From the IMG/VR virus record IMGVR_UViG_2718218434_000001: DNA of 30,763 nucleotides; one strand, given 5' to 3'. This DNA comes from a virus. Its lineage: Duplodnaviria > Heunggongvirae > Uroviricota > Caudoviricetes. Position 1 is the stretch's first letter; each line of letters opens with the position of its first letter. Positions 8,198-21,020 of this stretch are shown one piece after another. The translations under genes and the position numbers were made by a program. The notes beneath the pieces are model-generated. The model was not told where the DNA came from. It did no database searches and saw nothing but the letters and a program-made list of their open reading frames with translations.

Positions 8198-8599
8198 GTG
8201 GCAAAAGTTTTTACACAAGAAGAGCGGGAAAAAATTAAAGGGCAGGTGGTGGAACTCGTGCGCCAGAGCGGTCGTGAGACGTTACGGCAACTGGAAGCTA
8301 AAACAGGTGCGACTAGATATCTGATGAGCGTTCTTGCCAGAGAGCTGGTAGCCAGTGGCGATGTATACAACTCCGGCTACGGGTTATTCCCATCTGAACA
8401 GGCGCGTAAGGACTGGCAAAACGCCCGCAAAAAACTCTCGAGGGCAAAGGTGAAGAAAACAGCTGTGGTTGATCCGGACCTTATCTGGTCGTTACCTGAT
8501 GGAGAAATACGTCGCTACGACAGTCGCCTAAACATAATCTGTCGCGAGTGCCGGATGAGTGAAGTTATGCAGCGCATACTGGCATTTTATCAGGGATAA
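8198..8599 (+). CDS. Hypothetical protein (133 aa), GTG start
   Basis: AAGGGGGA RBS before GTG; basic protein with no recognised family; occupies the slot where a helicase loader (P/DnaC-like) would be expected but is too small and dissimilar. Confidence 0.55.
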   Translation: MAKVFTQEEREKIKGQVVELVRQSGRETLRQLEAKTGATRYLMSVLARELVASGDVYNSGYGLFPSEQARKDWQNARKKLSRAKVKKTAVVDPDLIWSLPDGEIRRYDSRLNIICRECRMSEVMQRILAFYQG

Positions 8600-13848: not shown

Positions 13849-14373
13849 TTATTGTTTAACCCATAATAGTTCATTGACATTGAATCCCAACTTTTGAGCG
13901 GTACGCACATAGTCTGCTTTTACATTATCTGGAATAGTTTGGGTCCTTGCCAGAATCCATAGGTATTCTCTGTTCGGACCACTGACAAGAGCATACTTAT
14001 ACTCATCATCCAGCTTGATTACATTATAGCCACCATAGAAGGGGCCAAAAAACGAAACTTTCAACGCTGCAGTTTTAGTATCTCCAGTAAAGTATGCTTT
14101 ACCTTCGCTCTCGCTCCATTTGTTTTTCGTTGGATCGTATCCACGGTTAAGTACGCGAATCCCTCCGTCGTTCCGTTTTTCATAAGTAGCGCTGACCTGT
14201 TCCAGACCACGTTCGAACCAGTTCTCGAGGCGAGCTATTTCATACCATTTTCCGAGGTAGCGGTTGGCGTCAAAATTTGTAATCGGCTGCACACCTTTAG
14301 GTGGTGTCGGGGCCTTACATGCTATAAGAGTGAAAGAGAGTGCAATGCCAGTCAACACAGGCCATAACTTCAT
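13849..14373 (-). CDS. blc: Outer-membrane lipoprotein Blc-like bacterial lipocalin
   Basis: Lipoprotein signal with lipobox (LIAC) and lipocalin motifs (NFDANRYLGKWYEIARL, KVSFFGPFYGGYNVI) matching recalled Blc. Confidence 0.85.
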   Translation of the reverse strand: MKLWPVLTGIALSFTLIACKAPTPPKGVQPITNFDANRYLGKWYEIARLENWFERGLEQVSATYEKRNDGGIRVLNRGYDPTKNKWSESEGKAYFTGDTKTAALKVSFFGPFYGGYNVIKLDDEYKYALVSGPNREYLWILARTQTIPDNVKADYVRTAQKLGFNVNELLWVKQ

Positions 14374-14565
14374 AATAAATCCTGTACTTTTGATAGTTGA
14401 GAGTAAGTATGAAAGATAGATGAGTACGACCGATCACTTAAAGAACTTTCCTACTATATTAGGAATAGTCAATAACAGAAAAATTGTCAGTGATGAAGCC
14501 AGAAAGGCAATTTAGTCCGTGCACTACAAAGTTTATGTGTTAATGAATTAGTCAAGGGGGAGGAA

Positions 14566-15525
14566 ATGATAAAAAAACCTGTGATTGGGATCAGCGGTTG
14601 TTTGGGCGGTTCTGCTGTTCGTTTTGATGGTGGTCACAAAAGAGATGACTTTTTAATGGACAAATTAGTGGAATGGGTAACATTCAGACCAGTATGTCCG
14701 GAAATGGCTATAGGGCTGCCAGTTCCGCGTCCTGCTCTACGACTTGTGCGCTCGAAGCAAGGAAATATACGGATGTGTTTCAGCCACGACCAGAATGAGG
14801 ATGTGACAGAGAGAATGACAGAGTTTAGTCGTTCTTATATGGACAAATTAAAGGATGTATCGGGGTTTGTGGTTTGTGCTAAATCTCCCAGCTGTGGCAT
14901 GGAGCGCGTGCGTGTCTATGATGAAAATGGTAATCGAGGTCGTAAAGATGGAGTGGGACTATTTACGAGCACTTTGATGGAAAAGTTTTCCTGGCTACCG
15001 GTTGAAGAGGATGGGCGATTACATGATCCAGTGCTTCGTGAGAATTTTATTGAAAGAGTTTTTGCTTTGCATGAGCTCAATCATCTTTACAAGGAGAAAT
15101 TATCAAGAAGAGAGTTATTAGCTTTTCATAGTCGTTATAAGCTTCAGTTGTTGGCGCATAGCCAGGCAGGCTATAAAGATATGGGACCATTTGTGGCTGC
15201 AATACACGAGTGGGCGGACCTTGAATCATACTTTGAGGTGTATCGTGATAATCTGATGGCGATTCTCAGAAAACCAGCATCACGTAAAAATCACACGAAT
15301 GTGCTGATGCATATACAGGGGTATTTTAGTAATTACTTAAGTACACGCCAGCGTAAAGAGTTGAGCGAGGTTATACTTAACTATCGCTTTGGCACATTGC
15401 CTCTTCTTGCGCCGTTGACTCTGCTGAAGCATTATCTGGGTGAGTATCCTAATGATTACTTGCTTACACAGAATTACTTCGATCCCTATCCGGAAGAACT
15501 GGCTCTAAGACTGATGGTGAATTAA
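14566..15525 (+). CDS. DUF523 (TudS-like Fe-S thiouracil desulfidase family) fused to DUF1722 (YbgA-like) protein
   Basis: N-terminal GISGCLGGSAVRFDGGHK with additional conserved Cys (CPE, SPSCG) typical of DUF523; strong GGGGGAGGA RBS. Confidence 0.7.
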   Translation: MIKKPVIGISGCLGGSAVRFDGGHKRDDFLMDKLVEWVTFRPVCPEMAIGLPVPRPALRLVRSKQGNIRMCFSHDQNEDVTERMTEFSRSYMDKLKDVSGFVVCAKSPSCGMERVRVYDENGNRGRKDGVGLFTSTLMEKFSWLPVEEDGRLHDPVLRENFIERVFALHELNHLYKEKLSRRELLAFHSRYKLQLLAHSQAGYKDMGPFVAAIHEWADLESYFEVYRDNLMAILRKPASRKNHTNVLMHIQGYFSNYLSTRQRKELSEVILNYRFGTLPLLAPLTLLKHYLGEYPNDYLLTQNYFDPYPEELALRLMVN

Positions 15526-15999
15526 CTGTATGCGATATCATCTGAAAGTGATGAGTTCCTGTATGCAGGATATTTACAATCGTAAAAACTACGCTATGAT
15601 GCCCATAGTGTCAGTTTGTATAAAAATCCTGTTCACGCTAAAGAAAACATTGAGATGCAATTTAATGTTGGTAAACATACCAGCCCCAAAAGATTTTATT
15701 CAATCTGTTTTTATATGAAGATATTTCAAGTGAATATTAAGAGCATATAATATTATTATTGCACGCAGCTATTATAATATAACAGATTAGTTTAATGATT
15801 TGTTTTTTGTGAGTTAAACACATGGTTTTATAGTTGTGATGCAATGAGATTTTCCTTATTGTTGAACTGGCGAATATTGATTTTCCACCTATACTTACCT
15901 GGTGTAACCCCAATGATATCAGGTGGATAATATGCCATACATATGTTCTATCATTTTGGTGTTGAACTCGTTTGTTGTCCGAATTGGTAAAGAAGATAT

Positions 16000-16644
16000 T
16001 TGTTTAAAAAAGGAAATGCTGTCCTCATTGAATACAATTTAAAAGATCTTTTTTCGTCAAATACAGATCATCTAATGATCGTAGATGTTGAGGAGAAAAC
16101 AGTTAATGATTTCTTTAAAAACTACACACTCTCACCTTTTTCTGTAAGAAGGTTTTATCCGTCATACTTGATAGTAGAATGTGAAGATTTTTCATTGTTA
16201 AGGAACTTGGTTGCATGCTTGAATTGTGATAGCAAAACCGTGGATGTAGTTAGAAATCAAATATCACTTGCATGTCTTGCTGTCTTATCTTCAGAGAAAA
16301 TAGTGCAAAGTTTTTTGTTCGGAAGTCTTAATAGCTTAGGTTGTAAAGTTAAGGCTATTATTCACTCGGATATCTCAGCGTCATGGAGACTTTGTGATAT
16401 ATCTTCAAGATTATATATGAGCGAGAGTTTGTTAAAAAGAAAATTAAAAGACGAAGGATTATCGTTTAGTAAATTAATTCTTGAAGAACGAATGATGATG
16501 GCGCAAAGATTATTGATCTACAGTAACCATACTGTCGGCAAGGTGGCGGGAATATGCGGGTATGACAATGCATCATATTTTGTAAGTGTTTTTAGAGGAT
16601 ATTTTGGTGTGCCTCCGCACCAATATTTATCAAGATTTTCTTAG
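16000..16644 (+). CDS. AraC-family transcriptional regulator (AppY-like); N-terminus uncertain (TTG start or truncated)
   Basis: C-terminal AraC HTH region (GYDNASYFVSVFRGYFGVPPHQY); preceded by a very AT-rich ~280-bp region. Confidence 0.65.
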   Translation: MFKKGNAVLIEYNLKDLFSSNTDHLMIVDVEEKTVNDFFKNYTLSPFSVRRFYPSYLIVECEDFSLLRNLVACLNCDSKTVDVVRNQISLACLAVLSSEKIVQSFLFGSLNSLGCKVKAIIHSDISASWRLCDISSRLYMSESLLKRKLKDEGLSFSKLILEERMMMAQRLLIYSNHTVGKVAGICGYDNASYFVSVFRGYFGVPPHQYLSRFS

Positions 16645-16892
16645 AAGATATGATGTGATGGCATTTTATAAAGTTATTTTTTGAAGTGTAAGATTATACG
16701 ATATTTTTAGCTACGCTAGAATAATTGCTGGCGTTTTTCTTTTTGAATAGATGTTCGGGCCTTACGCTAATGTAACTTCTTTCCTTCTTCGAACCAAACC
16801 GTGTACACCATCCGTTATCTGCGGAGGTGATCTTACCCAGCAATAGTGGACACGCGGCTAAGTGAGTAAACTCTCAGTCAGAGGTGACTCAC

Positions 16893-17192
16893 ATGACAAA
16901 AACAGTATCAACCAGTAAAAAACCCCGTAAACAGCATTCGCCTGAATTTCGCAGTGAAGCCCTGAAGCTTGCTGAACGCATCGGTGTTACTGCCGCAGCC
17001 CGTGAACTCAGCCTGTATGAATCACAGCTCTACAACTGGCGCAGTAAACAGCAAAATCAGCAGACGTCTTCTGAACGTGAACTGGAGATGTCTACCGAGA
17101 TTGCACGTCTCAAACGCCAGCTGGCAGAACGGGATGAAGAGCTGGCTATCCTCCAAAAGGCCGCGACATACTTCGCGAAGCGCCTGAAATGA
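16893..17192 (+). CDS. insE: IS3 transposase OrfA (InsE)
   Basis: HTH-containing orfA translation [29 protein letters not shown]... within IS3. Confidence 0.85.
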
Positions 17193-18055
17193 AGTATGTC
17201 TTTATTGAAAAACATCAGGCTGAGTTCAGCATCAAAGCAATGTGCCGCGTGCTCCGGGTGGCCCGCAGCGGCTGGTATACGTGGTGTCAGCGGCGGACAA
17301 GGATAAGCACGCGTCAGCAGTTCCGCCAACACTGCGACAGCGTTGTCCTCGCGGCTTTTACCCGGTCAAAACAGCGTTACGGTGCCCCACGCCTGACGGA
17401 TGAACTGCGTGCTCAGGGTTACCCCTTTAACGTAAAAACCGTGGCGGCAAGCCTGCGCCGTCAGGGACTGAGGGCAAAGGCCTCCCGGAAGTTCAGCCCG
17501 GTCAGCTACCGCGCACACGGCCTGCCTGTGTCAGAAAATCTGTTGGAGCAGGATTTTTACGCCAGTGGCCCGAACCAGAAGTGGGCAGGAGACATCACGT
17601 ACTTACGTACAGATGAAGGCTGGCTGTATCTGGCAGTGGTCATTGACCTGTGGTCACGTGCCGTTATTGGCTGGTCAATGTCGCCACGCATGACGGCGCA
17701 ACTGGCCTGCGATGCCCTGCAGATGGCGCTGTGGCGGCGTAAGAGGCCCCGGAACGTTATCGTTCACACGGACCGTGGAGGCCAGTACTGTTCAGCAGAT
17801 TATCAGGCGCAACTGAAGCGGCATAATCTGCGTGGAAGTATGAGCGCAAAAGGTTGCTGCTACGATAATGCCTGCGTGGAAAGCTTCTTTCATTCGCTGA
17901 AAGTGGAATGTATCCATGGAGAACACTTTATCAGCCGGGAAATAATGCGGGCAACGGTGTTTAATTATATCGAATGTGATTACAATCGGTGGCGGCGGCA
18001 CAGTTGGTGTGGCGGCCTCAGTCCGGAACAATTTGAAAACAAGAACCTCGCTTAG
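17189..18055 (+). CDS. insF: IS3 transposase OrfB (InsF), DDE integrase-type catalytic domain
   Basis: orfB in -1 frame overlapping orfA end, typical IS3-family organisation. Confidence 0.85.
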
Positions 18056-18095
18056 GCCTGTGTCCATATTACGTGGGTAGGATCAAGGTGAGGCT

Positions 18096-18311
18096 ATGAA
18101 ATCCATGGATAAGTTAACAACGGGCATCGCCTACAGCACCTCTGCAGGCAGTGCTGGCTACTGGTTTTTACAGTTGCTCGATAAAGTCACGCCCTCACAG
18201 TGGGCGGCAATAGGTGTATTGGGTAGTCTGGTATTTGGCATGCTGACGTATCTGACAAACCTTTATTTCAAGATTAAAGAAGACAGGCGTAAGGTTGCGA
18301 GAAGAGAGTAA
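18096..18311 (+). CDS. Class II pinholin (phage 21 S-like, 71 aa) with dual-start MKSM motif
   Basis: Translation [24 protein letters not shown]...RKVARRE matches recalled S21-type holins; RBS partly formed by the IS3 target duplication. Confidence 0.85.
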
Positions 18312-18315
18312 TCCA

Positions 18316-18867
18316 ATGACTCAAGACTATGAACTGGTTGTGAAAGGAGTTCGCAATTTTGAGAATAAAGTGGCGGTAACTGTAGCCTTACGGGACAAAA
18401 AACACTTTGACGGTGAAATTTTTGACCTGGACATCTCGCTGGACCGTGTTGAAGGTGCCGCGCTGGAGTTTTATGAGGCAGCAGCCAGAAGGAGCATCAG
18501 ACAGGTCTTCCTGGATGTTGCTGCCGGGTTATGTGAAGGGGATGAGCAGTCGCCGGAAAAGCGCCCCATAATTTTAGAGGCGCAGAATGTGTGGATAACC
18601 TACAAAGGAAAGCTACCGGGAAGAATTACTGGTTCTCTGAAGACGCCACCGACGGCATTGCGGTCAGAAAAAGATGATATTGAATCGCCCATTGAAAAAC
18701 TGGAGGGCAGCGTCGCTGATCTGAATAAAAAATTGTCGGTGCTGATTCCTTCTGAAGATGAAAAAAAACGCCGCGATGAGCAGTTTGCGGCGTTTTACGA
18801 TTATTGCATTGAAGTTACTCGCAGGAATTTTGTGAAGATTTTTGAGGAGGGTAAATCTCTTCAGTAA
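18316..18867 (+). CDS. Hypothetical protein (183 aa) inserted between holin and endolysin
   Basis: ATG at 18316 with purine-rich RBS, overlapping holin stop region; no recognised family. Confidence 0.5.
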   Translation: MTQDYELVVKGVRNFENKVAVTVALRDKKHFDGEIFDLDISLDRVEGAALEFYEAAARRSIRQVFLDVAAGLCEGDEQSPEKRPIILEAQNVWITYKGKLPGRITGSLKTPPTALRSEKDDIESPIEKLEGSVADLNKKLSVLIPSEDEKKRRDEQFAAFYDYCIEVTRRNFVKIFEEGKSLQ

Positions 18868-19075
18868 GCTTATTGGCGGACGCTGCAATTAATTCAGGAA
18901 GGTCCGCAAGGTCATCTGTCAGTGGATATGATGAAAAATCGGCGGCAGTTCTGTTAAGAAGCGCTTTAACTAATTCCTTTTCCTTCTCCGGCAACAAGTT
19001 GATTAGAGCTACGACTGCTTGCCTGAGTGCGATTAAATCAGCAAAAGTTTGTTTAGGTAGATTTGTGTAATCCAT
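18815..19075 (-). CDS. Hypothetical acidic protein (86 aa), convergent with and overlapping the 183-aa gene
   Basis: Good RBS (AGAGG, about 6 nt spacing) upstream of ATG at 19075; no recognised family. Confidence 0.4.
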   Translation of the reverse strand: MDYTNLPKQTFADLIALRQAVVALINLLPEKEKELVKALLNRTAADFSSYPLTDDLADLPELIAASANKLTEEIYPPQKSSQNSCE

Positions 19076-19188
19076 AGTCGCCTCTGTGTTTATCAGATTG
19101 ACATCCTCCTCCCGCCAGTGCCCATCACTGGTGAGGTAAGATTTAACATATCCGGGGATTTGAAGCCGATAAATCCTGATAAATATCC

Positions 19189-20216
<1,028 letters not shown>

Positions 20217-20579
20217 ATTAATATTAAATCGGATTATTTTTAGCGCTGAATGTGAAATTTAAATAAAAAGGACTCTTCCATGAGTCAAAATCCTTGAAAT
20301 CTTAAGGGTAAGATAAAAGGTCATTAGACAGAATGACACGTTTTATTAATAAATAAAGCTATTGTTTCATTCGTGTGTTTTTCTTTACAAAAGTAATCCT
20401 TGCTATGGTTGGTTAATCATGCGTTAATGGTGTTCTGGTTTGTTACAAAATTATCTGAAGCAGTCATTGTTATAATTTTATTATTTGTACCTCTTGAGAT
20501 TTCCTTGTTGGTTTTTCTCTCTGATATTTTTTTTCGGACCATTCTGCCCAAGGGCTAACTTCTTCAAAAGGTAATAATG

Positions 20580-20792
20580 ATGTCTAACAAAATGACTGGT
20601 TTAGTGAAATGGTTTAACCCTGAAAAAGGTTTTGGTTTCATCACGCCGAAAGATGGTAGCAAAGATGTGTTTGTCCATTTCTCAGCTATTCAGAGCAACG
20701 ATTTCAAAACGTTAACTGAGAATCAGGAAGTCGAATTTGGTATTGAGAACGGACCTAAAGGCCCCGCGGCTGTTCATGTTGTGGCACTTTGA
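20580..20792 (+). CDS. cspI: Cold-shock protein CspI-like (CspA family, 70 aa)
   Basis: Translation [38 protein letters not shown]... with RNP motifs; long AT-rich 5' UTR (20220-20576). Confidence 0.9.
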
Positions 20793-20991
20793 GGTAGAAA
20801 ATATTACAAACCATATTCACTTTAGATGCCCGTGTTGCCATGGTTCTCAGTATAGAACATCATCTTTTGATGTTTCTGACAGGAATCCTTTCGGGGCAAA
20901 ATGTATCTTTTGTAAATCAATGATGATTACATTTGATAATATTTCACAATACTTAAATGTTAGCCGTCTATCGTTAGATTTAAGAAAGTGA
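20776..20991 (+). CDS. Candidate small zinc-ribbon protein (CxxC...CxxC) downstream of cspI (YnfQ/YmcF-like?)
   Basis: ORF overlapping cspI end in another frame; contains CPCCHG and CIFCKS pairs; start codon uncertain. Confidence 0.3.
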
Positions 20992-20995
20992 AAAT

Positions 20996-21020
20996 GAAGG
21001 CTCCTTCGGGAGCTTTTTTG
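20996..21020 (+). terminator. Rho-independent terminator (GGCTCC-TTCG-GGAGC + T6)
   Basis: Stem-loop plus T-run seen in sequence after the csp locus. Confidence 0.7.

What the first reader, a model, noticed from the sequence alone, without database searches (positions are those of the whole stretch)
18316..19075. Two uncharacterised convergent genes embedded inside the lysis cassette between pinholin and SAR endolysin
In the canonical S-R-Rz cassette the holin and endolysin are adjacent. Here a 183-aa ORF (plus strand, start overlapping the holin stop) and an 86-aa acidic ORF (minus strand, good RBS) overlap convergently by about 50 bp between them. Neither resembles known lysis regulators. 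This late-operon position is a known moron site, so they may encode a lysis-timing, exclusion or defence function, or a toxin-antitoxin-like pair.
Basis: partly seen in the sequence, partly recalled or inferred. Interest (0 to 1): 0.55.

Follow-up and report, generated by a model that had tools for sequence, protein, structure and literature searches.

The report
Portable antisense gene pair in lysis cassette
Between the holin and endolysin genes of this E. coli prophage lie a member of the widespread but poorly understood YdfR family and a small antisense gene, and the tail of the first plus the whole of the second turn out to be a ~490-bp two-gene cassette of unknown function that moves as a unit among Escherichia and Salmonella prophages.

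Summary
One correction: the 183-aa ATG sits 4 nt after the holin stop rather than overlapping it.

The 183-aa gene is not a novel insert. Its first 112 residues are the YdfR/DUF1327 core. That core's DNA is in 79% of complete E. coli genomes, and it sits between the phage-21-type holin and endolysin wherever I looked. The K-12 homologue was recently reported to bind RNase E.

The new result concerns residues 113-183 (X) and the antisense 86-aa gene (Y), which form a portable convergent cassette. It occurs in four contexts:
- X fused to two different YdfR cores;
- X alone after the holin;
- X alone after Rz in Salmonella prophages;
- a fifth N-terminal partner seen as protein sequence only.

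The 53-59-nt 3' overlap was the same in the three contexts where I measured it. All three diverged cassette types share a hairpin, followed here by a U8 run, that sits inside X's codons just past Y's stop. It looks like Y's terminator.

Y has a conserved ribosome-binding site and start, and homologues at 41-55% identity. It has no convincing promoter and no informative fold or family match.

Best reading: a moron-like accessory cassette in which Y is transcribed independently against the late operon and X is made with the lysis genes. Function is unknown. A classical toxin-antitoxin or lysis-machinery role is not supported. Interest is moderate.

The parts
18096..18311 (+). essQ-type class II (phage 21 S-like) holin. 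Context gene, upstream neighbour.
   Evidence: PF04971, E=3.3e-34. PGAP names it 'essQ class II holin' in identical loci.
18316..18867 (+). Composite late-strand ORF of 183 aa: YdfR-family core fused to the portable tail X.
   Evidence: ORF list. phrog_2091 matches full length at E=8e-112. Length variants of 103, 114-116, 176, 183, 211, 268 and 296 aa share the core but differ after about residue 112.
18316..18651 (+). DUF1327 / YdfR core, residues 1-112.
   Evidence: PF07041 at 143 bits against a cut-off of 25, covering residues 1-112. 84% identity to K-12 YdfR over residues 1-74. Residues 1-72 of K-12 YdfR bind the RNase E N-terminal half in two-hybrid assays, and full-length Strep-tagged YdfR co-purifies the RNase E catalytic domain (PMC13232886). 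Homology with cassette-less 116-aa variants ends at 18651.
18652..18867 (+). X: portable helical tail, residues 113-183. Elsewhere it is a free-standing 67-73-aa late-strand gene.
   Evidence: AF2 predicts helices 123-143 and 147-182 at low confidence. Homologous free-standing X73 lies after Rz in Salmonella prophages. Free-standing X67 lies after the holin in Stx-like phages. X is also fused to a K-12-type YdfR core. Same reading frame and equivalent stop (K-S/L-x-Q(Q)) in the sequences aligned. pN/pS is 0.38-0.48 in its non-overlapping part.
18765..18796 (-). Hairpin (arms 18765-18774 and 18787-18796), followed on the minus strand by a run of 8 U (the A-run 18761-18768 on the plus strand). 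Inferred to be the intrinsic terminator of Y. It is embedded in the X codons KKRRDEQFAAF.
   Evidence: MFE -14.6 kcal/mol, z=-3.8 against shuffles. It begins 18 nt after Y's stop. The 8-bp core pairs in 100% of 7 distinct sequences from three diverged cassette types, with one G-C to A-U double change. The KRRDE codons that encode one arm are missing from the Y-less 296-aa variant. The generic terminator scan missed it because the loop is 12 nt.
18815..19075 (-). Y: antisense 86-aa acidic helical protein gene (phrog_2572; PGAP hypothetical protein WP_001557934.1).
   Evidence: Homologues of 89-93 aa at 41-55% identity. pN/pS 0.3-0.55 within type A. The Y frame beats the wobble-matched plus-strand frame in identity, BLOSUM score and codon log-odds in all types. 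AF2 gives three helices at mean pLDDT 74.
18815..18867 (.). 53-nt convergent 3' overlap of X and Y.
   Evidence: The overlap is 59 nt in the Salmonella type (called genes; computed) and in L022, and 53 nt in other E. coli loci.
19081..19084 (-). Shine-Dalgarno GAGG of Y, 5 nt before its ATG.
   Evidence: Types B and C carry AAGGA at the equivalent place.
19145..19173 (-). Candidate weak promoter for Y: TTTATC (19173-19168), 17-nt spacer, TATGTT (19150-19145). Not established.
   Evidence: TTTATC-N17-TAT[G/T][T/G]T is present in all three cassette types. It matches only 7 of 12 consensus positions and was not called by the promoter scan.
19166..19190 (.). Near-invariant block (minus strand ATG[G/T]ATATTTATCAGG[A/C]TTTATC). 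It is the leader and start of rrrQ on the plus strand and lies about 100 nt upstream of Y on the minus strand.
   Evidence: It is conserved even in the Salmonella type, where no endolysin gene adjoins it. The 50 nt upstream of R are also present in Y-less phages.
19189..19722 (+). rrrQ-type lysozyme with an N-terminal SAR-like segment. Context gene, downstream neighbour.
   Evidence: PF00959, E=2.6e-24. PGAP names it 'rrrQ lysozyme'.
18873..19070 (+). 65-codon TTG ORF antisense to Y. It shares Y's wobble positions. Judged a shadow ORF, not a gene.
   Evidence: Its pN/pS equals Y's by construction. It scores lower in conservation and codon use in every type. It has a TTG start, and no Shine-Dalgarno sequence is evident upstream.

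Best explanation
The interval holds two real protein-coding genes.

**Gene 1 (18316-18867, +)** belongs to the late lysis transcription unit and is a composite. Residues 1-112 are the YdfR/DUF1327 core, which sits between the phage-21-type holin and endolysin wherever I looked. Residues 113-183 are a portable helical tail, X.

**Gene 2 (18815-19075, -)** is Y, a small acidic helical protein. It is read against the late operon from its own ribosome-binding site. Its transcript most likely ends at a GC-rich hairpin plus U8 run that is written into X's codons 18 nt beyond Y's stop.

**The cassette.** X, the hairpin, Y and about 60-110 nt of Y leader make up a ~490-bp cassette (about 18652-19137). 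It is inherited as a unit and is present in only a few percent of such lysis cassettes. It is therefore an accessory, moron-like insertion, not part of the holin/endolysin/spanin machinery.

**Proposed working (inferred, not shown).** Y is made independently of Q-dependent late transcription, for example in the lysogen. When the late operon fires, convergent transcription and the resulting antisense RNA shut Y down, and at the same time X is translated with the lysis genes. X and Y are inferred to be partner proteins. X may be free or tethered to whichever N-terminal domain it is fused to, so the two would define opposite states (prophage versus late lytic). The biochemical target is unknown. 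The RNase E binding reported for the K-12 YdfR core concerns only the N-terminal part and can be separated from X-Y.

**Shown:** gene reality, family membership, cassette architecture and mobility, hairpin conservation.
**Inferred:** Y's promoter and timing, termination at the hairpin, and the X-Y interaction.
For: **Gene reality and family**
- establish the ORFs, families and PGAP annotation.
- The core is 84% identical to K-12 YdfR.
- K-12 YdfR residues 1-72 bind the RNase E N-terminal half in two-hybrid assays. Full-length tagged YdfR co-purifies its catalytic domain and may carry RNA (PMC13232886).

**Cassette contexts**
- Type A (this window): holin, core::X, convergent Y, endolysin. Y is in 313 of 5426 E. 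coli genomes.
- Type B: a K-12-type core fused to a diverged X, with a 41%-identical Y.
- Type C: Salmonella prophages. Rz/Rz1, free X73, convergent Y (49-55% identical), a DUF1441 protein, then a large ORF in the terminase position.
- Type D: Stx-like phages. Holin, free X67, convergent Y, endolysin, with no DUF1327 core.
- A further N-terminal partner fused to X is seen in protein P0204.

**Shared architecture**
- The overlap is always 53-59 nt. The X frame and stop are equivalent in every type checked.
- Y is absent next to the 103-, 116- and 296-aa YdfR variants.
- K-12 ydfR equals type B minus a 580-bp block that carries X, Y and most of the endolysin leader.

**Hairpin**
- z=-3.8.
- The stem is invariant while the loop, the flanks and the encoded amino acids change. 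There is one compensatory pair.
- The codons for one arm are missing from the Y-less 296-aa variant.

**Y is coding**
- Conserved Shine-Dalgarno sequence and start.
- pN/pS 0.3-0.55 and 0.0 in the Salmonella type.
- The Y frame outperforms the shadow frame.
- Indels are in frame.
- Y is intact in about 85% of 98 loci.

**X is coding:** pN/pS 0.38-0.48, and the same frame is used in every context examined.
Against: - No convincing sigma-70 promoter lies upstream of Y. The best conserved candidate matches only 7 of 12 positions and was not called.
- The block that contains it is also the endolysin leader, so its conservation in types A and B could serve the endolysin.
- The U-tract after the hairpin is strong only in type A. 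It is moderate in type C and poor in type B. Covariation rests on a single event, and 75 of 500 shuffles do as well.
- Linkage of X and Y could follow simply from their physical overlap.
- Ten of 98 loci have Y's ATG changed to ACG with X intact, and one locus has an IS3 inside Y. Y is therefore dispensable for carrying the prophage.
- Structure models are of modest (Y, pLDDT 74) or poor (YdfR::X, pLDDT 54) confidence. All fold and profile searches were uninformative.
- No expression data were available.
- In this window an IS3 sits in the holin's ribosome-binding region. The late operon here may no longer be driven by Q.
Confidence: 0.5

Rival explanations
1. Y is a simple stand-alone moron, that is, a lysogenic-conversion, defence or anti-defence gene with its own signals. 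X has no functional tie to it. X is just a modular coiled-coil tail or small late protein. It stays next to Y only because Y's terminator and 3' end are written across its last ~35 codons.
For: - Y has its own Shine-Dalgarno sequence, start and hairpin/U8.
- Presence is polymorphic: 313 of 5426 genomes carry Y against 4262 with the core.
- An X-like N-terminal helix also occurs without Y in the 296-aa variant.
- In Salmonella the N-terminal half of X is far more diverged than Y (pS 0.30 against 0.02). This implies recombination within the cassette.
- In Salmonella the cassette occupies the slot after Rz, where lambda carries the moron bor (the lambda comparison is background knowledge).
Against: - The same X reading frame and stop are kept in every context examined, with different upstream partners and purifying selection. 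That is not expected of a passive read-through.
- In every locus I examined, Y had an X-type ORF across its 3' end.
- There is no defence or anti-defence family hit. The weak AcrIIC4 similarity was not confirmed.
Confidence: 0.3
2. X and/or Y, and the YdfR core, are lysis-timing accessories acting on the pinholin or SAR endolysin. This would be an antiholin-like or endolysin-release control, as the position between S and R suggests.
For: - The position is inside the lysis cassette and the spacing suggests translational coupling: the ATG is 4 nt after the holin stop.
- Y's first helix (residues 10-28) is unusually hydrophobic. Its Kyte-Doolittle 19-residue mean is 1.62. A crude insertion energy of +6.5 is close to the +5.6 of the endolysin's own SAR segment.
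- Paper PMC13232886 cites a genetic screen that linked K-12 ydfR to envelope integrity.
Against: - The Salmonella cassette lies after Rz, next to holin- and endolysin-position ORFs of different sizes (136 and 139 aa) that did not match this window's holin or endolysin.
- About 96% of ydfR-bearing cassettes lack X-Y, and K-12 lacks it.
- Y is antisense to the lysis genes.
- Y has no signal peptide, lipobox or convincing membrane segment. A conserved D, R, Q and N sit inside the helix.
- There is no homology to any known lysis regulator.
Confidence: 0.1
3. X and Y are a toxin-antitoxin-like pair. This could be a protein pair, or a type I-like system in which 3'-overlapping convergent RNAs control a toxin.
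For: - Convergent 3' overlap of 53-59 nt, with a shared hairpin reminiscent of a bidirectional terminator.
- This resembles the layout of Bacillus prophage type I systems (background knowledge).
- One partner is acidic: Y has pI 4.6. Free X73 is basic, pI 8.9.
Against: - Neither product is a small hydrophobic peptide. GRAVY is negative, and the maximum Kyte-Doolittle 19-residue mean of X is 0.3-0.8.
- The genes are not co-transcribed as in type II systems.
- No TA or defence profile hit.
- Copies with Y's start lost or Y interrupted keep X intact. There are also copies with a truncated late ORF and intact Y.
- X would be made only late in lytic growth, when the cell is already doomed.
Confidence: 0.05
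4. The 86-codon ORF is not a protein gene. On this reading the region is non-coding, or an antisense RNA, or the true frame is the plus-strand 65-codon ORF.
For: - The plus-strand ORF at 18873-19070 shares wobble positions with Y. It shows the same pN/pS and stays nearly open in all types.
- Some annotations omit Y.
- 10% of copies lack its ATG.
Against: - Homologues at 41-55% identity keep length, start position and Shine-Dalgarno sequence.
- The Y frame is better than the shadow frame on identity, BLOSUM score and codon log-odds in every type.
- The plus-strand ORF has a TTG start with no evident Shine-Dalgarno sequence.
- An open wobble-matched antisense frame is a known by-product of real genes (established knowledge).
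- No Rfam match.
Confidence: 0.05

Closest known systems
YdfR of the E. coli K-12 Qin prophage (b1555, P76160; Pfam DUF1327/PF07041)
   Same: - Same family: PF07041 at 143 bits.
- 84% identity over residues 1-74.
- Same position between an essQ-type holin and an rrrQ-type lysozyme.
- The segment reported to bind RNase E (residues 1-72; PMC13232886) is conserved.
   Different: - K-12 YdfR is 103 aa. It ends inside the endolysin leader and overlaps the rrrQ start.
- It lacks the X tail and the antisense gene. K-12 equals the type B arrangement minus a 580-bp block.
- RNase E binding was not tested for the 183-aa form.
Morons of lambdoid phages, for example lambda bor and lom. These are independently transcribed accessory genes inserted in the late region (background knowledge).
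   Same: - A small gene with its own translation signals and terminator, antisense to the late operon.
- Presence or absence varies among otherwise similar cassettes.
- G+C is slightly lower than in the neighbours: 0.42-0.44 against 0.49-0.52.
- The Salmonella version sits in the slot after Rz, where lambda carries bor (the lambda comparison is background knowledge).
   Different: - In every locus I examined it is paired with a late-strand ORF (X) that overlaps its 3' end and contains its terminator.
- X can be free or fused to different proteins.
- The promoter is not demonstrated.
- There is no lipoprotein or outer-membrane signature like that of Bor or Lom.
Convergent 3'-overlapping type I toxin-antitoxin loci of Bacillus prophages (txpA/RatA, bsrG/SR4). 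Background knowledge.
   Same: Convergent transcription units whose 3' ends overlap by tens of nucleotides around a shared hairpin, located on prophages.
   Different: Both partners here are conserved soluble proteins of about 70-90 aa. Neither is a small hydrophobic toxin paired with an untranslated RNA.
Phage proteins that bind or modify RNase E (T4 Srd, T7 gp0.7, phiKZ Dip). Background knowledge.
   Same: By homology to K-12 YdfR, the core domain may bind the RNase E catalytic half during late infection.
   Different: - No sequence or fold relation was found.
- K-12 YdfR overproduction had little effect on the transcriptome.
- The X-Y cassette also exists without the core.

Membership tests
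YdfR family / DUF1327 (PF07041) | Profile match above Pfam's gathering score | tested here: met
   143.4 bits against a cut-off of 25. Residues 1-112 match profile positions 1-92 of 93.
YdfR family / DUF1327 (PF07041) | Located between a phage-21-type holin and lysozyme in a lambdoid late operon | tested here: met
   and loci.
YdfR family / DUF1327 (PF07041) | Binding to the RNase E N-terminal catalytic half (reported only for K-12 YdfR) | not testable with these tools
   Only sequence conservation of residues 1-74 (84%) could be shown. The paper is cited.
Lambdoid moron (independent accessory transcription unit in the late region) | Own intrinsic terminator | tested here: met
   Hairpin plus U8 run 18 nt after Y's stop, z=-3.8, stem conserved in three diverged types. 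Actual termination is not shown.
Lambdoid moron (independent accessory transcription unit in the late region) | Own promoter | tested here: inconclusive
   Only a conserved 7-of-12 candidate (TTTATC-N17-TATGTT), which the scan did not call.
Lambdoid moron (independent accessory transcription unit in the late region) | Present in some and absent from other closely related phages at the same site | tested here: met
   Y is in 313 of 5426 genomes; the ydfR core is in 4262. Y-less cassettes are seen. The K-12 form lacks a 580-bp block.
Type II toxin-antitoxin pair | Two co-directional, co-transcribed genes, one with a recognisable toxin or antitoxin domain | tested here: not met
   The genes are convergent. 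No Pfam, NCBIfam or PADLOC hit.
Type I toxin-antitoxin locus | Small hydrophobic membrane-active toxin peptide opposed by an untranslated antisense RNA | tested here: not met
   Both partners are conserved hydrophilic proteins with negative GRAVY.
Known lysis accessories (antiholins, spanins, SAR-endolysin regulators) | Membrane segment, signal or lipobox, or homology to a described regulator | tested here: not met
   No family hit. No convincing membrane segment: Y helix 1 has a crude insertion energy of +6.5, with conserved D, R, Q and N inside it. Weak membrane association of Y is not excluded.
Anti-CRISPR AcrIIC4 | Significant sequence or fold similarity | tested here: not met

The most novel reading that the evidence does not exclude
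X-Y is an undescribed two-protein state switch carried by enterobacterial lambdoid prophages. Y, a small acidic helical protein made from its own unit in the lysogen, acts on a host or phage target, for example RNA decay, lysis or exclusion of other phages. X is made only with the lysis genes and can be tethered to different carrier domains, including the RNase E-binding YdfR core. X would neutralise or redirect Y. Convergent transcription, together with a terminator encoded inside X, would hard-wire their mutual exclusivity.
Probability: 0.15. Interest if true: 0.7.

Novelty: new variant of a known kind. Interest (0 to 1): 0.4.

Why it matters
**YdfR.** It is one of the commonest prophage genes of E. 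coli and has no assigned function. This analysis shows it is modular: a conserved core with exchangeable tails. That clarifies what the recently reported RNase E binding can and cannot explain. It also explains why NCBI's annotation pipeline marks intact 183-aa copies as pseudogenes.

**The X-Y cassette.** It is a compact test case of about 490 bp. It can address how accessory genes are wired into a phage late operon by convergent transcription, with a terminator hidden in a coding sequence. It is carried by inducible phages (PhiR63_1, 2H10, PhiR5_1, PhiR12) and by Stx-like prophages, so a phenotype could be tested directly. Candidate phenotypes are lysis timing, spontaneous induction, exclusion and RNA stability.

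If no phenotype appears, it is simply one more pair of hypothetical prophage genes.

Tried and rejected
- **Family searches for X and Y.** Pfam, NCBIfam and PADLOC gave nothing above threshold. Only PHROGs families of unknown function matched.
- **'DUF1823' label.** Record PV340545 gives this name to Y. Pfam did not reproduce it.
- **Fold searches.**
  - Foldseek against the PDB for Y: nothing with E<8.
  - Foldseek against viral models for YdfR::X: nothing with E<0.02, and the model itself is poor.
  - The afdb50 library was unavailable.
- **AcrIIC4 lead**. Rejected after hhalign (9%) and the fold searches.
- **Eight-repeat hit to a 975-aa protein** (P0140). Its sequence is repeat-rich, and I read it as TPR-like by eye. 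I treated the hit as repeat and compositional similarity only.
- **Y as an inverted copy of the C-terminal domain of the 296-aa YdfR variant.** No similarity.
- **Rfam.** No known RNA family.
- **Generic promoter/terminator scan.** It found neither Y's hairpin (the loop is too long for its rule) nor a promoter.
- **pN/pS alone.** It could not separate Y from the wobble-matched plus-strand ORF. This was resolved with diverged homologues and codon scores.
- **Literature.** Searches by accession and PHROG id found nothing. 'DUF1327' occurs in a single genomics paper.
Full report
**Where the window comes from.** The region is 100% identical to chromosomal loci of many E. coli strains. It corresponds to a Qin-like lambdoid prophage (E. 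coli HS locus). The local gene order is:
- an essQ-type class II holin (18096-18311, PF04971);
- the 183-aa ORF (18316-18867);
- the 86-aa minus-strand ORF (18815-19075);
- an rrrQ-type lysozyme (19189-19722, PF00959);
- a DUF2514-type Rz (19719-20216).

**Check of the observation.** Both ORFs exist at the stated coordinates and overlap convergently by 53 nt. The 86-aa product is acidic (pI 4.57). GAGG lies 5 nt before its ATG. One detail is wrong. The 183-aa ATG (18316) lies 4 nt after the holin stop (18309-18311). Only the TTG-extended 190-codon version overlaps the holin.

**The 183-aa ORF is a YdfR-family gene, and that family is the norm at this position.**
- Residues 1-112 match Pfam DUF1327 (PF07041) at 143 bits. 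The whole protein matches phrog_2091.
- In K-12 Qin the order is essQ-ydfR-rrrQ. K-12 YdfR (103 aa) is 84% identical to residues 1-74 of the window protein.
- DNA of the core is found in 4262 of 5426 complete E. coli genomes, at 8366 places.
- The only functional data I found are in a 2026 paper (PMC13232886):
  - Full-length Strep-tagged YdfR co-purifies the RNase E catalytic domain.
  - The preparation carries RNA.
  - Overproduction changes few transcripts.

**The family is modular.** Homologues share the core but come in lengths of 103, 114-116, 176, 183, 211, 268 and 296 aa, and they differ after about residue 112. AlphaFold2 gives three strands plus a helix for the core at moderate confidence. 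It gives an unstructured linker (residues 70-127) and two helices (123-143, 147-182) for the tail. The overall pLDDT is 54.

**The 86-aa ORF (Y) is a real gene.**
- It is phrog_2572 and PGAP protein WP_001557934.1.
- A word-indexed search found only relatives at 84% identity or more in E. coli.
- An exhaustive HMMER search found homologues of 93 and 89 aa at 55% and 41% identity.
- Within the window's type, pN/pS is 0.3-0.55.
- That statistic is shared by a plus-strand 65-codon ORF (18873-19070), whose wobble positions coincide with Y's. This frame stays nearly open in all types. An open frame of this kind is a known by-product of real genes.
- Across the diverged types, the Y frame has higher identity, higher BLOSUM score and higher codon log-odds than the shadow frame.
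- Y keeps its start position and Shine-Dalgarno sequence. Its indels are in frame.
- AlphaFold2 predicts a three-helix protein at pLDDT 74 from a shallow alignment.

**Main finding: the tail of gene 1 (X) and gene 2 (Y) form a portable convergent cassette.** Y is found only next to the 176-, 183- and 211-aa YdfR forms. It is absent next to the 103-, 116- and 296-aa forms. The diverged Y homologues revealed further contexts:

| Type | Host | Arrangement (late-operon direction) |
|---|---|---|
| A (this window) | E. coli | holin, YdfR core::X, convergent Y, endolysin |
| B | E. coli (6 of 5426 genomes) | holin, K-12-type YdfR core::diverged X, convergent Y (41% identical), endolysin |
| C | Salmonella enterica prophages | Rz/Rz1, free-standing 73-aa X coupled to the Rz stop, convergent Y, a DUF1441 protein, then a large ORF in the terminase position |
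| D | Stx-like E. coli prophages (found on about 390 contigs) | holin, free-standing 67-aa X, convergent Y, endolysin; no DUF1327 core |

- Type C is absent from E. coli. Its cassette has holin- and endolysin-position ORFs of different sizes that did not match this window's holin or endolysin.
- One more N-terminal partner fused to X is seen in protein P0204.
- In every type checked, X is co-directional with the late genes, Y is convergent, and the overlap is 53-59 nt. X uses the same frame and ends at the equivalent stop.
- X is under moderate purifying selection: pN/pS is 0.38-0.48 in its non-overlapping half.
- K-12 ydfR corresponds to type B minus a 580-bp block that holds X, Y and most of the endolysin leader. 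Its last five codons come from that leader.
- Comparison with cassette-less relatives puts the window's cassette at about 18652-19137.

**A conserved hairpin inside X.**
- Eighteen nucleotides after Y's stop, the minus strand reads AAAACGCCGC-(12-nt loop)-GCGGCGUUUU followed by more U, eight U in a row. This is 18765-18796, with the A-run at 18761-18768 on the plus strand.
- It folds at -14.6 kcal/mol, z=-3.8 against shuffles.
- On the plus strand these bases encode KKRRDEQFAAF of X.
- The 8-bp core pairs in all 7 distinct sequences from types A, B and C. Meanwhile the loop, the flanks and the encoded amino acids differ. One pair changes from G-C to A-U.
- The covariation statistic is weak because it rests on a single event (75 of 500 shuffles do as well).
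- The KRRDE codons that encode one arm are missing from the Y-less 296-aa variant.
- I read the hairpin as Y's intrinsic terminator. The U-tract is strong in type A, moderate in type C and poor in type B. Termination itself is an inference.

**Y's promoter is not established.**
- The roughly 130 nt upstream of Y are conserved across types. They include a near-invariant block, ATG[G/T]ATATTTATCAGG[A/C]TTTATC.
- In types A and B, this block is the antisense of the endolysin's start and leader. It is also present in Y-less phages.
- It is kept in the Salmonella type, where no endolysin adjoins it.
- A conserved TTTATC-N17-TAT[G/T][T/G]T is the best candidate. It matches only 7 of 12 consensus positions, and the scan did not call it.

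**What the cassette is not.**
- No Pfam, NCBIfam or PADLOC match for X or Y, and no Rfam family.
- Fold searches returned only generic helical bundles.
- A weak profile hit to the anti-CRISPR AcrIIC4 (E=0.12) was not supported by hhalign (9%) or by either fold search.
- A toxin-antitoxin reading fails on several counts:
  - the layout is convergent, not an operon;
  - both products are hydrophilic proteins;
  - some copies have Y's ATG changed to ACG, 10 of 98 loci, all carrying the 176-aa form;
  - other copies have a premature stop or an IS3 in Y;
  - in all of these X stays intact.
- A role tied specifically to the pinholin/SAR-endolysin pair is unlikely, given the Salmonella context and the cassette's absence from about 96% of ydfR-bearing cassettes.
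- One caveat remains. Y's first helix is quite hydrophobic (Kyte-Doolittle mean 1.62). A crude insertion energy of +6.5 is close to the +5.6 of the endolysin's own SAR segment. The scale values were entered from memory. Weak membrane association cannot be excluded, although conserved D, R, Q and N lie within the helix.

**Most likely working.**
- Shown:
  - there are two real genes;
  - gene 1 is a YdfR core plus X;
  - X, the hairpin and Y form a mobile accessory cassette in or at the end of lysis cassettes.
- Inferred:
  - Y is an independent, moron-like unit that terminates at the hairpin;
  - Y is expressed when the late operon is silent;
  - Q-driven late transcription runs antisense through all of Y, which should silence it by collision and RNA pairing, while producing X;
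  - X and Y are partner proteins marking opposite states.
- The main rival is that Y is a simple moron and X an unrelated tail, kept adjacent only by the physical overlap. I give the partner model as stated about 0.5 overall. Within it, the anatomy is near 0.85-0.9 and the X-Y functional coupling near 0.3.

**Novelty and interest.** The genes themselves are catalogued as hypothetical proteins. I found no description of the cassette architecture or of its mobility across four contexts. It is best classed as a new variant of the moron theme inside a known late-operon position. Interest is moderate (0.4). It is testable in inducible phages and touches the unexplained YdfR family, but there is no functional evidence yet.

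Noticed in passing
window 16831-18088: A complete IS3 (insE/insF ORFs at 16884-17192 and 17189-18055) is inserted in the ribosome-binding region of the holin gene, 10 nt before its ATG, with a 3-bp AGG target duplication. E. coli HS has the same locus without the IS. The insertion separates the lysis cassette, and therefore X, from the upstream Q and late-promoter region in this prophage.
   Followed up: partly
L003 6231-6566; L017 1117-1452; L018 121-456: NCBI's PGAP annotates the intact 183-aa YdfR::X ORF as a pseudogene ('incomplete, missing C-terminus') that covers only the 112-codon core. The likely cause is that the modular tail does not align to the family reference. This looks like an annotation artefact, not a real truncation.
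   Followed up: partly
L004 6055-6366 (K-12 ydfR) compared with L109: K-12 ydfR looks like the type B arrangement minus a 580-bp block (X, Y and most of the endolysin leader). The junction lies at a short imperfect repeat (CCTCAT / CCTGAT). Its last five codons (HHKYL) are read from the endolysin leader and overlap the rrrQ start.
   Followed up: yes
window 18976-18990 (Y codons 30-34, EKEKE): The GAGAAG/GAAAAG repeat in Y varies by plus or minus 6 nt among strains (proteins P0002 and P0004). The in-frame gain or loss of one EK pair looks like slipped-strand variation.
   Followed up: no
L018 (E. coli SJ3) about 700-2000; L006-L008: Independent damage to Y. An IS3-family element is inserted at the position equivalent to window ~18883-18885, near Y's 3' end. 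A lineage carrying the 176-aa YdfR form has Y's ATG changed to ACG.
   Followed up: partly
L002 2961-3221 (phage PhiR5_1, PV340545): The deposited annotation calls the Y homologue a 'DUF1823 containing protein'. A Pfam scan of Y gave no DUF1823 match. The only hit was sub-threshold GCIP_C at E=0.011.
   Followed up: yes
window 19870-20166: An ORF in another frame lies inside the DUF2514 Rz gene and contains a lipobox-like LTSC motif (…[15 protein letters not shown]…). This looks like the embedded o-spanin (rzoQ-like), as annotated in K-12.
   Followed up: no
window 13849-16644 and 20577-21000: Accessory genes lie between the Q-like antiterminator and the holin. By comparison with E. coli HS these are a lipocalin-family gene on the minus strand, a YbgA-family gene and a helix-turn-helix gene. 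CspI-like cold-shock genes lie downstream of Rz. This is typical moron-rich Qin architecture.
   Followed up: no
P0067 / L009-L012 (296-aa YdfR variant): A third tail type keeps an X-like first helix but lacks the KRRDE/hairpin segment. It continues into a ~120-aa C-terminal domain of unknown function and abuts the endolysin with only a 36-bp gap and no Y.
   Followed up: partly
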